Positions 19,001-47,000 of a stretch of DNA of 64,000 bases are shown one piece after another. The position numbers were made by a program. Within the stretch, counting starts at the first letter, position 1. Every line of letters begins with the position of its first letter. The DNA comes from Girardia tigrina (taxonomy: Eukaryota), in contig MQRK01224520.1 of assembly GCA_001938485.1 (NCBI GenBank), positions 19,783-83,782 of the forward strand, read 5' to 3'.

Positions 19001-22000
19001 ATACAGTCATTAATTACAATAACAAGATTTAGACGTTTAAATTGCCTATGTATCTTGTTGATATGCGAAGACAGAAGAAATTAGCTGAGGAGAATGAACA
19101 CTACATTAACGTTAGAAGACTTAATTATCGATTATCTAAAAACTTTTGATTTGGATAGCAGTCGCAGTAAGAAAAGAGAATAGAAATATAATCAAAGAGA
19201 AAAAACGTTTGAAAACTTAATTCTAAAATTAATTACAAATTAAATAAAACTTACACAATTTCAAAATTTGAATAAATTTCAAAGAGGAATTTTGCTTTGC
19301 AAAGAGCAGTTTAATTATATTGTTCTACGTGGTAAAACTTGTGATGGTTGAAGTCTTGTTTGTGAAGTTGATAGGAAATCATGTTTCCTAAAAAGATTTT
19401 GTTCGGGTTTTAGTTACAGTGAAAACAAAATATACCCCAGTATAAATGGATAGCAGCAAAACAATATTTGCGATCCAATCTAATTTCTATGAACAATCGC
19501 GAATCTCCTGAAGGTATTAAAATAAATTTTGATTCTTGGCAACGTACAACCTCTTATCGGCTTTTGATTTTATATTCTCCGTCCAAGATATCTGCTACGA
19601 AATACAAATGATTTTTCCTTCCTCCTTTTCGCACCACTCAAAAGAAGGGGTTCAGCTCAAAAATAAAAATGCCAGACAACGAAGTTTAATGTTCTATTTG
19701 CTTGAATCAAGTAATTATTTTAGTCGATAATATTAACTTGTTAAAACTGAATCCTGACTTAATCACATAATGATATAACGAGCACTATTAATTAACATAT
19801 ATTGAAACGAACAATGCGACATTTAACATATAAAACAAAAATTCGAGTCGAAATTGAGTCAATTACTTCTAAAGAGCGATAAAATGACGGTGAGCATCTT
19901 CATTAATGTCTCTGGATGTCTAAGGCTCGTCTAAATATGTCAATGAATATTTCAATCTGTTTTCGTCCAACGCGAATCGTTCAGCAGTGAAATACATTTC
20001 GTGCATCCAACAGCAACCAACAATCATATGAAACGACATATCTTTAAAAAGATTTGTTAAGCTTTCAGAAACTAAAGTTTTCAGTCGAAACATTTGCAAG
20101 ATATCGGATGCGATACATGATTTATATCGTAAATTCGGATCCGGATTCAAAAGGCTCTTGATCACCTTCTCAACGATAGTTGGTGCAGAGAAAACTGGAG
20201 GTAAATCTTCCAATGAGTAACTTTCCACATTCACCTATCAAAAAAATATATGTTATAAATATACTACTTTTCTTATTTGAGCAATGTATCATGGTTTTGA
20301 TAAACAATAATTTAGAGAACAATTTTGTCTTAAGAGAACTCGAACAACTAGTTATAGATAGAGACACTCTAGAGAGACTTGATGTCATAATTTACTCAAA
20401 ATCAATGAAGGATCATATGAGACTATTAGAAGAAGTACTGAATAGACTGAATAAATCAGGTTTAAAAGTCAATCCAGGGAAATGCAAATTCGGAGTGGGG
20501 GAGCTAGTATTTCTGGGACATACAATTAACAAAAACGAAGTTTTAACGAATTGAAGCAAAAGCTATGTGGGCACCAATATTAGCATTTGTAAACCCGAAT
20601 AATAATTTCATCTTAGACACATATGCATCATTCGGATCGATAGAAGCCGTTCTAAGTCAGATATCAGAAGGGAAAGAAGTAGCAATCGCGTATGCATTGA
20701 GGACTTTAACCACACATGAAAAAGGGTAATGTGTGACAAGAAAGGAACTATTAACTTTACAAGAGTTCATTTTACATTTCAAGCAATATTTATATGATAA
20801 GCGATTTATAGCAAGAACTGATCATAAAACACTGGTGTATATGAAGAGTACTTCCAAACCAATAACTCCTCAATTCCAGACATGGTTAGCAAACATGGCG
20901 GATTTTGATTTTGAATTGAAGTATAGAAAAGGTGACGAACATGGAAATGCAGTCTTTGTAAAACAAGATCCTACAAAACTGAGAAAGGACACTTTCCCAT
21001 TCGATGGACAGTACCAAATTTTAGGACATATATCACCACACCAATTGTAACTACAGAATCTGAAAGATGGAAACATAATTCGTCGAAGAATTGAGTGGAT
21101 TAAGAAAGTAAATAACGAATTATAAAGGGGGGAAAGTTGTGATTATTAATTTGTTTAAGTATTCTAAAAAGATTGTAAATATTAAATAAATTCTACTTGT
21201 TGAAATTCACAGTTATTAAATTGAACAAACCTGGAGATTTAACTAATCGAAAACGGATTTCTTTAAAATACTCGAAAACCATTTGAGATAAATAGCTGAA
21301 AATTTGGCTGAATTATCTTTATTTAATATCCAAACGATTCCCCAAGTGCAAATCGAAAAACCTGCGGTGGCTAGATTTCCCTTTAAAATCCGGCTTTGTC
21401 CGTTGTATTTAATATTTGAATATTGTTTCTTGCAAAAAGTGTTTAAAATTCATTAGTATATTTAGTTCGTAATATGTGTGCTAAGAATGAAAATTTGCGT
21501 TTATTAAAATAAGGAAATTATAGAAAAAATATTTTGTGTGAAGTTTTATTCGTATAATGTTTTATAATCTGTGTTATGATTGGAAAGAGTGCATATTTTG
21601 TGAAGAATAGCTTTTCTAACACGCTTTAAAAGTTGTATTTGCTTATTTTCTAAAATTTAAAAATTTAAGATTTTTACGGAATAAAGAATTTATTTCCGCG
21701 ACTCCCTGTTTTCCTAATTATTTGAACGGTGTCAATGGATTAAGCCGATTAGAAAGTAGCAATGGAATGTTTTCCATAATAAATTGAAGAAGCAGATTAT
21801 CAGAAATCATTCATCAAATCTAATGCGTTTTTAATTTGAAATTTCTGGCTTCCGTGTCAAATAGTTTGTAACAAAACCAGAAATATTGTTTTACAACGTG
21901 ATAAGAATTTCTTCTACCAGCCTCTGCGCTGTATTAGGAAACTTAATGTGAGATTTTAATTGTTCAATTATTATGTCCTGAAAGAGACTGAAGTTACCTT

Positions 22001-44000: not shown

Positions 44001-47000
44001 CATTATTATATGATATATCCTTTTAAACACTTGTTTTTAAAATAGGTACATAAAAATTTTTTAAATAATATTAAAATCCATTTTTTTGTTAATTAAAATT
44101 TAAACTTATTAGATATTAGTTATTATTTTATTCATGTTCTTATTCGTAAATACAAAGAATACCAATTTTTATTAGGGTGGGAGAATCACCATTCTAAGTT
44201 TAACATATTCAAATAAACATACGATATTCACATACAATTAAAATATTCAGCACACTTAAGAAATACCCGATTAGAATTTTTTAAAAGCTGCTTAAATACA
44301 TCTTAAAAATCATGCTGACATTTCGGATTACGCATAATTGGATTAGACGAATTAGATTAAATTCAAAATTGACTTTATAATTTCTATTAAACACTACAAT
44401 GAAAATGAAATACCTCTCTAAAATAATAGAATCCGCGACCCCAAAGTGTTCAACATCAGGACAAGATTCTTTAAAAATTGGATCTTGACAGATGGGGATT
44501 TTGCATTCGCCAATAAATTGAATAATGTTCGGATGGTTTTGTAATTTAATTAAAAATTTGCTTTCTGTTTCGAGACAATCAAAGCCATATTTATATGGTT
44601 GTTTTAATATAATTTTAGATTCTGAAAAAAAATTCAAATTTAACAACTACATTATTAAATTACAAGTTAATTAAAAATATATGTAAATTTAGACGAAGCT
44701 TAATATTTAGATTATTAGATGAATATTTTGTAACTGAAATATATTTTTCAAAATGACGAATTTCGTTTTCCCGCAGATTTTGGCATTCTAGTTTTGAGTT
44801 TAACACCCGATTTTTGTTTTTATTTAGGGAACTCCTAAATTTGTTGCATTTGAATTATTGGGATCTTAAGTATTAGGTCAACAACAAAAGTTAAATATTA
44901 AATCGTGATATAAAAATTTATTTTAGGAAAAAAACCTGTTTAAAATTAGACAATATGATCGAAATTCTAAAAATAACTCTGATCGAAATAATACTCTATC
45001 AAATTTTTGTTAAATGAATCTCCTTACAAACCAGCACCAGGAATCAAATGATGATAATCTTTATAATAACTGTAGTAAACTCATATAAATTTAATATTGC
45101 AACGATCGACTGTTTATCGGAAAAACAAAAAGACGGAAAATTCAAATATTATACAGAGCCTATGCATATAATTTCCACAGGTTAAACTCTTATGGATGCC
45201 AAAAGAAATTGCATTGTGGTGGAATGGGCGAATATGCAAATGGGATATTTAATCTTACAATTGACAACTCAACTAATTGATTGCCTAATCCCGCAAAGTT
45301 AAAATCACTAAATGCTAAAAACATGATAAAATTCAATGCACAAGATTCTAAAGGAATGTCACAAACTGAAATCATCGGAAGTTTCCTATCATCCGTCGAC
45401 AAAGGTAAGGTAAATACTTTAATCAAATTATTCAAAAATACATTTGAAGAATAAATATATATGTGTGTGTAATTATTTTAATTTTTATAAATAGCTGCTG
45501 TTTATATTGATATTAAATAAAATTTATATGTTATTATAAAAAAACGTTTTATTTCTATTTAATCCATGCAACAGCTGTACGCAATGCTTGATTTAATAAA
45601 TTTGCACTTGCTATTTCTCTAAATTTCTTTGCTGGATGATAATTATTTTCAACTGTAGTAGATTTTCATTGACCAACTCGATTTCGATAGTCAATTCACT
45701 CGTTTAGTTTCTCTTTCTACCTTTTGAATATCGTTCCATGTGGTCCTCGCATCCTATAAAGCACTAGACTTTTTAGGAGGCCTAAGACGCTTATGGCTTC
45801 AAAAAGCAATCCCCAAACTGGAGATTGACATGCCTAAGCTCCGCCGGCGAACCGGTTTCGCAGCACCACTCATAACGATTAGAAATCAAAAATCATTGCG
45901 ATGCAATCGACCACTCGACTGCAGGGTCACAACTCCCCACAGTCATGACACTCAGTTTAGGTAAGCTATAGCCTTGTAAGGGGATTGCAAGCCCACTGGT
46001 ACTACAATATTCTGTCGACACAGATATAGGCTAGCTTCAGACACTTGAGCCTAGAGACGGAATCGAATCCATTCTAGTTTCCAAGGGATATTACGTGGAA
46101 GTATGTCTGTCTTGCTCGCACAGGGAACCCTGTATATGTAATACATTCTCTTTTTCATTATTTATTAAATTAAAGTGTTTTCATATTTATGGTGTTTCGG
46201 TCAAACGACCGATAATGCAAAAACTGTTAAAAAACTTTTTAATAAATGATTTATTAATTAAATTAAACAAATAGTGGAAGAGAACACAATTTCAAATGTT
46301 AATGTTTTTGAATAAAAATTATGAACGTTTTTTTATATATTTTCAACCAATATTGAATATTATTCGTCACTCGGATGTTTTTACCCGATTACGATATTGA
46401 CGGAAACCGCACTGTGCGGCAACGGTCCCAATCGGTCGGATTACGTGCGCCATCGCCTCGCACAATTTGGCGACGCATGATGGATCCCCAAAATCTCACT
46501 GGTCACACACTCGGGCCGTGTTTCAACGAACGGATCGGTATCGGCGTTCACAGAAGCGGAACCGCCGCGAGCAGATCGCGGGACTGCCATCCCATGACAT
46601 ATCGACCGATGATCACCGGATCCGATCGGCAACCCGACGCCGTCGAACCGACGCGGCGATCTAACCGGGTACCAAGTCCCGGCACATGTAAGATGCACAT
46701 GTCGCCACTCGGTCCGGCTGCCGGCACCACAATATTAAATTGAGAATTTTTAAGATTAAATTGAGAATTCGAATTGTTGTATTAATATTTTTTCTGAATA
46801 CATTTAATACCATTTTGTGCAAATTTAAGCTTTATTATAAAATTTGGCAAAGTTAACATGACATCAAATAACTTTAAGGATTTAATTTCAAATTAATTGT
46901 TGTACAAAAAATAATACATCAATCTATTTATAATTTTAGAGACAATTGCTAATATGCCAGTCAAACATTCTCTAGAAAGATCAGCAAGACGGAAACTTTC

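What the first reader, a model, noticed from the sequence alone, without database searches (positions are those of the whole stretch)
19920..44621. Hidden multi-exon PINK1-like kinase spanning at least 24.7 kb of TE debris
Seen: four minus-strand exons with canonical GT-AG ends and exactly compatible phases (AG|G = Arg, T|TT = Phe, then phase 0) give 941 nt with no internal stop, while the neighbouring recognisable coding remnants are broken. The ORF track misses the catalytic-loop exon (40690-40844). Known: HPNI..PDV, DFxC.L, Y.K.D.WA.G...YEIF...NPF, SY....LP and a helical C-terminal extension are PINK1-family features. Inference: this is an expressed, selected and very divergent mitophagy-kinase homologue whose exons carrying the Gly-loop and any targeting sequence lie further 5'.
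[Added by the scan's program, not by the reader: the finding's places include an assembly gap (unread letters, written N; its length is only estimated) at 39835 to 39884. Whether the letters on both sides are continuous or in frame is not known: test that first.]
Basis: partly seen in the sequence, partly recalled or inferred. Interest (0 to 1): 0.75.

Follow-up and report, generated by a model that had tools for sequence, protein, structure and literature searches.

The report
Unannotated PINK1-related kinase gene, 3' part
Four small exons scattered over 24.7 kb of transposon wreckage encode the intact rear two-thirds of a protein kinase whose closest known relative is the mitochondrial damage sensor PINK1, although it sits just outside the ordinary PINK1 group and its front end was not found.

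Summary
Four minus-strand exons total 941 nt: 44621-44414, 40844-40690, 22632-22370 and 20234-19920. All have AG/GT borders, compatible phases and no stop before the final TAG.

I scanned 3533 six-frame segments of the window with a PINK1 profile. The only three significant hits are exons 2, 3 and 4 (E 2.5e-11, 3.8e-18, 1.4e-6). They lie in profile order.

Exon 3 hits 12 of 12 solved PINK1 sequences first. On an exon-3 tree it pairs with one 75-aa database fragment. That pair is sister to, not inside, an 11-member PINK1 clade.

The catalytic residues are kept, except that DFG is DFD. PINK1 insertion 2 is absent and insertion 3 is shortened. Exon 1 looks like a generic kinase N-lobe.

The N gap lies inside the 18-kb intron 2, at the centre of a 160-nt inverted repeat, and touches no exon. 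Linkage of exons 1-2 to exons 3-4 across it rests on kinase collinearity.

No Gly-loop or targeting exon was found. Expression and function are untested.

Verdict: a real, probably functional PINK1-related kinase gene. The claim that it is a mitophagy kinase is unproven.

The parts
44414..44621 (-). Exon A, the first exon found and not the first of the gene. It is 208 nt and begins with 2 nt of a split codon. It encodes the putative beta3 Lys (IILK), alphaC Glu, HPNI, an insert of about 13-17 residues at the position of PINK1 insertion 3, and beta5.
   Evidence: Borders. Translation. It is the best of 3533 window segments against a generic kinase N-lobe profile (E 0.024, next 1.7). MAP3K12 is the best solved match (E 0.33). 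Atlas look-alikes are kinase-domain clusters (0.90-0.94, lead only). Against the PINK1 profile only HPNI aligns.
40845..44413 (-). Intron 1 (3569 nt, GC 24.8%). It holds two partial copies of the repeat that flanks the gap, and a 23-codon piece resembling the start of exon C at 44234-44302.
40690..40844 (-). Exon B (155 nt): alphaD-alphaE and the catalytic loop HRDMKPNN.
   Evidence: Pfam Pkinase positions 92-130, E 1.9e-6. PINK1 profile positions 272-325, E 2.5e-11. Borders.
22633..40689 (-). Intron 2 (18,057 nt including the N run), full of broken transposon genes.
   Evidence: piggyBac DDE_Tnp_1_7 in three frames at 24833-26191 and MULE at 30941-31246. GC 28.8%.
39675..40044 (.). Inverted repeat with two 160-nt arms. 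Its centre is the assembly gap at 39835-39884. It looks like a foldback or MITE-type element.
22370..22632 (-). Exon C (263 nt): beta7-beta8, DFD (in place of DFG), the activation segment, SPE, and alphaF with the PINK1-type motif Y.KSD.WA.G...YEIF...NPF.
   Evidence: Pfam Pkinase positions 136-198, E 1.2e-7. The 12 best solved matches are all PINK1. PINK1 profile positions 334-411, 63.1 bits, E 3.8e-18. Tree.
20235..22369 (-). Intron 3 (2135 nt), with reverse-transcriptase and RNase H remnants on the + strand.
19920..20234 (-). Exon D (315 nt including TAG): alphaH-alphaI with the Y..E.LP..P motif, then about 55 further residues predicted as helices (a C-terminal extension).
   Evidence: hhalign against the PINK1 alignment: 86.7%, E 4.4e-6 over 45 columns. 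PINK1 profile positions 418-514 of 533, E 1.4e-6. tblastn of PINK1-like P0016 starts exactly at 20234. AF2 helices at 19-28, 39-61, 67-88 and 91-101, mean pLDDT 72.7. Foldseek top hits are PINK1, but E is 0.2-0.5 over 46 columns.

Best explanation
This is the 3' part (313 codons in four exons) of a real, unannotated, intron-rich eukaryotic gene. It encodes a Ser/Thr protein kinase of a lineage that is sister to canonical PINK1.

Shown:
- The exons are open, correctly bordered and collinear with a PINK1 profile.
- The catalytic Asp and Asn (HRDMKPNN), the Mg-binding Asp (in DFD), the Glu of SPE, the alphaF Asp and the alphaI Arg are all present.
- The alphaF-alphaG region and the start of the C-terminal tail are PINK1-type.

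Inferred:
- The protein is an active kinase. ATP would be held by the Lys of IILK paired with the alphaC Glu of exon A.
- The helical C-terminal extension packs on the C-lobe and, as in PINK1, pairs with an N-terminal helix encoded by exons not yet found.
- Because insertion 2 is absent, insertion 3 is 9 residues shorter, and no Ser aligns with the activating autophosphorylation site, it probably does not work as a ubiquitin kinase in the PINK1 manner. I read it as a diverged paralogue-like lineage with another substrate or regulation.

I put about 0.85 on 'real gene with these four exons', about 0.7 on 'closest kin is PINK1', and about 0.5 on 'distinct lineage rather than a fast-evolving orthologue'.
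For: - Exon borders and phases. Open frames.
- PINK1 profile A1 is validated against solved structures. Twelve PINK1 sequences score E 1e-165 to 1.8e-118, and the next hit is 7.8e-20.
- A1 finds only exons C, B and D among 3533 window segments, in profile order.
- The Pfam Pkinase matches of exons B and C abut, at positions 92-130 and 136-198.
- For exon C the 12 best solved matches are all PINK1 (1.5e-7 to 3e-4). The next is DMPK at 2.8e-3.
- Exon C scores 63.1 bits on A1. Other PINK1-like fragments score 59-75 bits and non-PINK1 fragments 16-25 bits over the same columns.
- Tree of 30 rows on the exon-C region: window + P0005 at 95/85; this pair plus 11 PINK1 rows against 17 other kinases at 93/91.
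- Exon D against A1: 86.7%, E 4.4e-6. Five of the 6 solved-structure hits are PINK1.
- The gene keeps 24 of 30 PINK1-invariant columns. Thirteen non-PINK1 control kinases keep 16-21 of 30.
- GC1 exceeds GC3 in exons A and B. The chance of 310 open codons is about 8e-12.
- P0005 shares DFDC.LDL, QGT and NPFLK, and reads on into an intron at the same place.
Against: - No transcript evidence is available.
- The Gly-loop, any targeting sequence and the start codon were not found in 19.4 kb upstream.
- Exon A has no significant PINK1 signal, and its kinase signal is modest (E 0.024).
- Exon B alone is generic. CDK16 at 4.3e-4 ranks ahead of PINK1 at 3.1e-3, and its tree is unresolved.
- The canonical PINK1 clade excludes the gene at 97/94.
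- The only close relative, P0005, matches DAPK (7.9e-6) about as well as PINK1 (5.6e-6).
- The exon-D matches to solved structures are weak (E 0.7-0.9; Foldseek E 0.2-0.5 over 46 columns only). The AF2 model was built on a PINK1 alignment, which biases it.
- The excess of kept invariant columns over controls is small (24 against at most 21).
- The tree's reference set was picked by likeness to exon C, and that tree rests on about 87 residues.
- Exons A-B and C-D lie on different sides of an assembly gap.
Confidence: 0.65

Rival explanations
1. It is the organism's one true PINK1 orthologue. It is merely very fast-evolving, and it still senses mitochondrial damage and phosphorylates ubiquitin or Parkin.
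For: PINK1 is the nearest family for exons C and D. The tail aligns to the PINK1 C-terminal extension up to profile position 514 of 533. An insert of 13-17 residues, with an IP..(x)..CPDV pattern, lies where PINK1 insertion 3 has VP.LP...YPD (alignment, read by eye).
Against: Eleven PINK1 rows, some very divergent (P0011, P0023, P0025), form a clade without it at 97/94. Six columns invariant in all nine A1 members are changed, including the Gly of DFG. Insertion 2 is absent: 9 residues lie between the alphaC Glu and HPNI, against 23-28 in five PINK1 rows (counted). No Ser aligns at the activating site (weak alignment). Whether the genome has another PINK1 could not be checked.
Confidence: 0.2
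2. It is a dead or dying copy: a pseudogene whose 5' exons are lost, and which is no longer transcribed into a working kinase.
For: No 5' exon was found. The gene is flooded with transposon debris. DFG is DFD. No protein with this sequence was found in the protein sets searched.
Against: There are 313 codons without a stop in a 29% GC sequence, where about 8% of random codons are stops. All six splice borders are intact. Catalytic and structural invariants are kept. The DFD change is shared with P0005, which is only 49% identical, so it is old and tolerated.
Confidence: 0.08
3. It is a kinase of another group (CAMK/DAPK-like) whose alphaF region resembles PINK1 by convergence.
For: The best solved matches of exon B are CDK16, CaMKIV and CDPKs. 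P0005 ties between DAPK and PINK1. Exon A resembles MAP3K12.
Against: Exon C has a 13.6-bit lead for PINK1 over the best non-PINK1 match. Exon D matches the PINK1-only region past NPF. The tree gives 93/91.
Confidence: 0.05
4. It is a scaffolding artefact: exons A-B and exons C-D belong to two different loci, or to copies joined wrongly at the repeat around the gap.
For: The gap is flanked by a repeat family that has other copies in the window. Its length and continuity are unknown.
Against: The two halves are on the same strand and in the right order. Their phases match (T|TT). They abut in profile coordinates without loss or overlap: A1 positions 325 then 334, and Pfam positions 130 then 136. 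No duplicate of any exon is in the window.
Confidence: 0.04

Closest known systems
PINK1 (PTEN-induced kinase 1). Solved examples: Tribolium 5oat/7mp8, Pediculus 6eqi/7t4k, human 9eih.
   Same: The catalytic loop is HRD.K..N. The DFxC.L motif, the alphaF motif Y.KSD.WA.G...YEIF...NPF and the Y..E.LP..P motif are present. A helical tail follows alphaI and aligns to the PINK1 C-terminal extension. There is an insert at the position of insertion 3. PINK1 is the top family in sequence, profile, fold and tree tests for exons C and D.
   Different: It lies outside the canonical clade (97/94). It has DFD instead of DFG. GGN..L.APE is changed to QGTSDRTSPE, and NPFY to NPFL. Insertion 2 is absent and insertion 3 is 9 residues shorter. 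No Ser aligns at the activating autophosphorylation site. The N-terminal targeting sequence, transmembrane helix and N-terminal extension, the Gly-loop and insertion 1 are not seen at all.
P0005, an unnamed 75-aa fragment on a single 503-nt contig (source label 'ena').
   Same: It is 49% identical to exon C. It shares ADFDC.LDL, QGT, SDIW.IG and NPFLK. It continues ..KVI, as if reading into an intron at the same position.
   Different: Only this fragment is known, and its organism and the rest of its gene are unknown. Its own best solved matches tie between PINK1 and DAPK.
CAMK-group kinases (DAPK, CaMK, CDPK), the second tier of matches.
   Same: The overall kinase core is shared. Exon B and P0005 match them about as well as they match PINK1.
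   Different: They lack the NPF/Y..E.LP region and the C-terminal extension matched by exons C and D.

Membership tests
Eukaryotic protein kinase superfamily (Pfam PF00069) | Catalytic loop HRD.K..N, Mg-binding Asp of DFG, Glu of APE, alphaF Asp, alphaI Arg | tested here: met
   HRDMKPNN, DFD, SPE, SDIW and DPNLR are present. Pfam Pkinase E 1.9e-6 for exon B and 1.2e-7 for exon C. The Gly of DFG is replaced by Asp.
Eukaryotic protein kinase superfamily (Pfam PF00069) | N-lobe with Gly-rich loop, beta3 Lys and alphaC Glu | tested here: inconclusive
   A Lys (IILK) and a Glu (LETES) are at the expected spacing before HPNI. No Gly-loop exon was found in the window.
PINK1 | N-terminal mitochondrial targeting sequence, transmembrane helix and N-terminal extension (architecture as stated in passages of bioRxiv 10.64898/2026.09.05.749644) | tested here: inconclusive
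   The 5' exons were not found. 19.4 kb upstream was searched with PINK1 proteins, a PINK1 profile, a generic N-lobe profile and motif scans.
PINK1 | Insertion 1 (between beta2 and beta3) | not testable with these tools
   It would be encoded by the missing upstream exon.
PINK1 | Insertion 2 (between alphaC and beta4) | tested here: not met
   There are 9 residues from the alphaC Glu to HPNI, against 23-28 in P0024, P0015, P0027, P0030 and P0016. The generic N-lobe profile also has 9 (counted by eye).
PINK1 | Insertion 3 (between beta4 and beta5) | tested here: inconclusive
   There are 36 residues from HPNI to the end of beta5, against 45 in P0024 and P0015 and 19-23 in the generic kinases P0008 and P0013 (counted by eye). 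Profile methods did not align this stretch.
PINK1 | PINK1-type activation segment and alphaF-alphaG region | tested here: met
   The 12 best solved matches are all PINK1. Exon C scores 63.1 bits on the PINK1 profile. However, N383, L386, A388 and Y427 are changed.
PINK1 | Helical C-terminal extension after the kinase core | tested here: inconclusive
   Exon D aligns to profile positions 418-514 of 533, at E 1.4e-6. hhalign supports only the first 45 columns. AF2 predicts three helices after alphaI at pLDDT 57-73. Foldseek aligns only 46 columns well.
PINK1 | Activating autophosphorylation Ser before alphaC. The numbering (human Ser228, Tribolium Ser205) is taken from the entry and paper titles seen. 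The mapping to the alignment column is recalled. | tested here: inconclusive
   In the fragment alignment the Ser column of ..ESN.. is a gap in exon A. The alignment there is weak.
PINK1 | Placement inside the PINK1 clade in a kinase tree | tested here: not met
   Exon-C tree: the PINK1 clade of 11 excludes it at 97/94, and it is sister to that clade at 93/91. The exon-B tree is unresolved. A tree of the joined protein was left out.
PINK1 | Ubiquitin / Parkin-Ubl Ser65 kinase activity | not testable with these tools
   This needs a biochemical assay.

The most novel reading that the evidence does not exclude
There is a second, old PINK1-related kinase lineage. It has DFD instead of DFG and lacks insertion 2. 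It combines a generic N-lobe with PINK1's C-lobe and C-terminal docking helices. It survives in at least two genomes and has escaped annotation because its small exons are buried in transposon-filled introns. If so, the PINK1 C-terminal module, and perhaps docking at the mitochondrial surface, is used by a kinase other than PINK1, with a different substrate.
Probability: 0.35. Interest if true: 0.65.

Novelty: new variant of a known kind. Interest (0 to 1): 0.45.

Why it matters
The papers I searched treat PINK1 orthologues only. None of the 10 papers returned for paralogue and duplication terms held those terms.

A sister lineage that keeps the catalytic core and the C-terminal module, but drops or shortens the PINK1-specific insertions, would be a natural experiment. 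It would show which parts of PINK1 serve ubiquitin recognition and which serve folding or docking.

It also shows how ORF-based annotation misses genes. One exon here has only a 65-codon frame, and one intron runs to 18 kb of transposon remnants.

The value is limited for now. The gene model lacks its 5' end, the organism is unknown to me, and nothing shows expression.

Tried and rejected
- **5' exons.** I tried four searches and none gave a credible Gly-loop or N-terminal exon. They were: tblastn of 30 library hits against the window, the PINK1 profile over all six-frame segments, Gly-loop motif scans of the minus strand above 44600, and a generic N-lobe profile.
- **GLGNQLVEL frame at about 45270.** I looked at it and dropped it. 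Its only nearby donor gives the wrong phase.
- **Protein-set searches with exon C.** With 'longer' and 'near' lengths they found nothing. With the exon C + P0005 alignment the only hit was P0005 itself.
- **The listing of cluster members** could not be run.
- **RNA searches.** Rfam at gathering scores over the window, Rfam by E-value over 45600-47000, and a tRNA scan all found nothing.
- **Pfam on other frames.** It found nothing on ten further frames below 19 kb and above 46 kb, nor on the GC-rich island.
- **GC-rich island against plasmids:** no match.
- **Atlas look-alikes of exon D** were below 0.9.
- **P0007** from the representative search is a repeat protein, not a kinase. I left it out of the tree.
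- **Exon-B tree:** unresolved.
- **Literature.** The search for 'PINK1' with 'NKF2' returned 0 papers.
- **Not used.** I did not scan genome contigs, which holds only bacteria and archaea.
- **Not seen.** Supplements were closed. This includes the species table of the 48-orthologue preprint, which might list lineages with odd PINK1 genes.

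
Full report
**What the window is.** The sequence is AT-rich, with GC of 23-37% per 2 kb. It carries decayed animal-type transposons. Its best match to human PINK1 is only 24 bits. I do not take it for human. 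The organism was not identified: no RNA family or tRNA was found.

**The gap, tested first.** The N run at 39835-39884 lies inside the proposed 18-kb intron 2. It is 806 nt beyond the donor of exon B and 17.2 kb before the acceptor of exon C, so no codon crosses it and 'in frame' does not arise.

The gap is flanked, flush on both sides, by the arms of a 160-nt inverted repeat (39675-39834 and 39885-40044, 98.75% complementary). Weaker partial copies lie at 44149-44222 and 42098-42193. It therefore sits at the apex of a foldback or MITE-like element, a likely reason for the assembly break.

Continuity across the gap is unknown. I did not fill it or look it up. What depends on it is the linkage of exons A-B with exons C-D.

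Four points argue for a correct join:
- the two halves are on the same strand and in the right order;
- their phases match (T|TT);
- they abut in profile coordinates, at Pfam Pkinase 92-130 then 136-198 and at PINK1 profile 272-325 then 334-411;
- no exon has a second copy in the window.

**The observation.** The four exons are 44621-44414 (208 nt), 40844-40690 (155), 22632-22370 (263) and 20234-19920 (315, ending in TAG). They total 941 nt. Each has AG before it, and the first three have GT after them.

Exon B has only a 65-codon stop-to-stop frame and is absent from a list of frames of 90 aa or more.

The introns hold a piggyBac-type transposase broken over three frames, a MULE piece, and reverse-transcriptase and RNase H pieces. 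Upstream lie mariner and pogo pieces.

Exon GC is 30-37% against 25-30% in the introns. GC1 exceeds GC3 in exons A and B. By composition, 310 open codons have P of about 8e-12.

**All searches were made exon by exon.** The joined protein was not searched, folded or put on a tree.

**Is it a kinase, and which kind?** Pfam finds Pkinase in exon B (E 1.9e-6) and exon C (E 1.2e-7), and nothing in exons A or D. Results against solved structures, per exon:

| Exon | Matches at E <= 10 | Best matches |
|---|---|---|
| A | 13 | MAP3K12, E 0.33; no PINK1 |
| B | 1121 | CDK16, E 4.3e-4; PINK1 at 3.1e-3 |
| C | 290 | The 12 best are all PINK1 (1.5e-7 to 3e-4); next is DMPK at 2.8e-3 |
| D | 6 | 5 are PINK1, but at E 0.7-0.9 |

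A full HMMER scan of 1.84 billion representatives with exon C gave only 30 hits at E <= 1e-3. The best is a 75-aa fragment, P0005, at 49% identity. Eleven of the 30 are PINK1-like by my reading (P0011, 15, 16, 17, 22, 23, 24, 25, 27, 30, 34). P0007 is not a kinase at all.

Nine PINK1-like hits were aligned as A1. Its profile hits 12 solved PINK1 sequences at E 1e-165 to 1.8e-118, and the next family at 7.8e-20. A1 is therefore a PINK1 profile.

I searched A1 over all 3533 six-frame segments of 12 aa or more in the window. It finds three segments and no others:
- exon C, E 3.8e-18;
- exon B, E 2.5e-11;
- exon D, E 1.4e-6, aligned to positions 418-514 of 533.

The next best segment has E 0.31. 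hhalign of exon D against A1 gives 86.7% and E 4.4e-6 over 45 columns. Exon A aligns only at HPNI, at 9.5%.

On A1, exon C scores 63.1 bits. Over the same columns the PINK1-like fragments P0023 and P0025 score 59-75 bits, the non-PINK1 fragments P0021 and P0029 score 16-25 bits, and P0005 scores 32 bits.

**Trees.** On the exon-C region I used 30 rows, with P0007 dropped. The window pairs with P0005 (95/85). This pair joins the 11 PINK1 rows against 17 other kinases (93/91). The PINK1 rows form a clade without the pair (97/94).

The caveats are that this rests on about 87 residues and that the reference set was chosen by likeness to exon C. The exon-B tree (22 rows) is unresolved. There, the window sits in an 85/81 group with 8 PINK1 rows plus P0014 and P0032.

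**Residues.** Of the 30 columns invariant in A1, the gene keeps 24. The six changed are G359 (DFG to DFD), N383, L386, A388, Y427 and E443. Thirteen non-PINK1 control kinases keep 16-21, so the excess is real but small.

From the printed sequences I counted two spacings by eye:

| Stretch | This gene | PINK1 rows | Generic kinases |
|---|---|---|---|
| alphaC Glu to HPNI (insertion 2) | 9 residues | 23-28 (five rows) | 9 (generic N-lobe profile) |
| HPNI to end of beta5 (insertion 3) | 36 residues | 45 (two rows) | 19-23 (two kinases) |

So insertion 2 is absent, and there is a shortened insert at the place of insertion 3.

**Exon A.** Its kinase signal is modest. It is the top segment of 3533 against a generic N-lobe profile built from 21 non-PINK1 N-lobes (E 0.024, next best 1.7). 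Its Atlas look-alikes with a family are all kinase-domain clusters, which is a lead only.

**The tail.** AF2 of exon D alone, run with a PINK1 alignment that biases it, gives a mean pLDDT of 72.7 and helices at 19-28, 39-61, 67-88 and 91-101. The top Foldseek matches are PINK1 with probability 0.96-0.99. However, E is 0.2-0.5 and only 46 columns align. The extension is plausibly helical and PINK1-like, but this is not proven.

**Relatives.** P0005 is a singleton on one 503-nt contig, with the source label 'ena' and no name. It shares DFDC.LDL, QGT and NPFLK with exon C, and continues ..VI as the window's intron does. Its own solved-structure matches tie between PINK1 (5.6e-6) and DAPK (7.9e-6). 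No protein identical or close to the window's exon C is in the protein sets searched, so the gene appears unannotated there.

**Reading.** The best explanation is a real and probably active kinase gene of a lineage sister to canonical PINK1, seen here without its 5' end. The family relation rests on exons C and D. A role in mitophagy, expression and localisation are all inference.

The architecture of PINK1 used for the membership test comes from passages of bioRxiv 10.64898/2026.09.05.749644. [quoted passage not shown] The other papers were seen as a listing only. That PINK1 resembles CAMK-group kinases is recalled, not checked.

Noticed in passing
window 39675-40044: A 160-nt inverted repeat (98.75% complementary) has the assembly gap exactly at its centre. 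Partial copies of the arm lie at 44149-44222 and 42098-42193. It looks like a foldback or MITE-type element.
   Followed up: partly
window 44234-44302 (-): Inside intron 1, 110 nt past exon A, a 23-codon frame bounded by stops resembles the start of exon C (47.8% identity over 23 residues, E 0.11 in the window). It may be a relic of a duplicated exon, or it may be chance.
   Followed up: partly
window 22626-22634 (-): A second AG lies 6 nt downstream of the exon-C acceptor. It would also be in frame, giving ..GR-Y-VKK.. instead of ..GR-F-VD-VKK... The two acceptors cannot be told apart without cDNA.
   Followed up: no
window 46380-46730 (also 45750-46050): A unique GC-rich, CpG-rich island (59.5% GC, CpG observed/expected 1.5) sits in a 29% GC sequence. 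It lies 1.8-2.1 kb upstream of exon A in gene orientation. Frames are open on both strands. There was no Pfam, Rfam or plasmid match and no second copy in the window. It is a possible promoter or 5' exon region, or a foreign fragment.
   Followed up: partly
window 49120-49922, 52026-53682, 55611-56156 (+): There are mariner (Transposase_1) and pogo/Tc5 (HTH_Tnp_Tc5 plus DDE_1 in two frames) remnants. A third transposase-like frame has no Pfam match.
   Followed up: partly
window 61925-62311 (-): A 128-aa frame ends in a motif that I recall as GIY-YIG-like, as found in Penelope-type elements. Pfam found nothing.
   Followed up: partly
window 18641: A single N lies 1.3 kb beyond the stop codon, outside the coding part.
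   Followed up: no
P0007 (library hit): A 1462-aa protein with 7 matched stretches scored E 6.2e-7 against exon C. It is a repeat protein without kinase motifs, so it is a false positive of the scan.
   Followed up: partly
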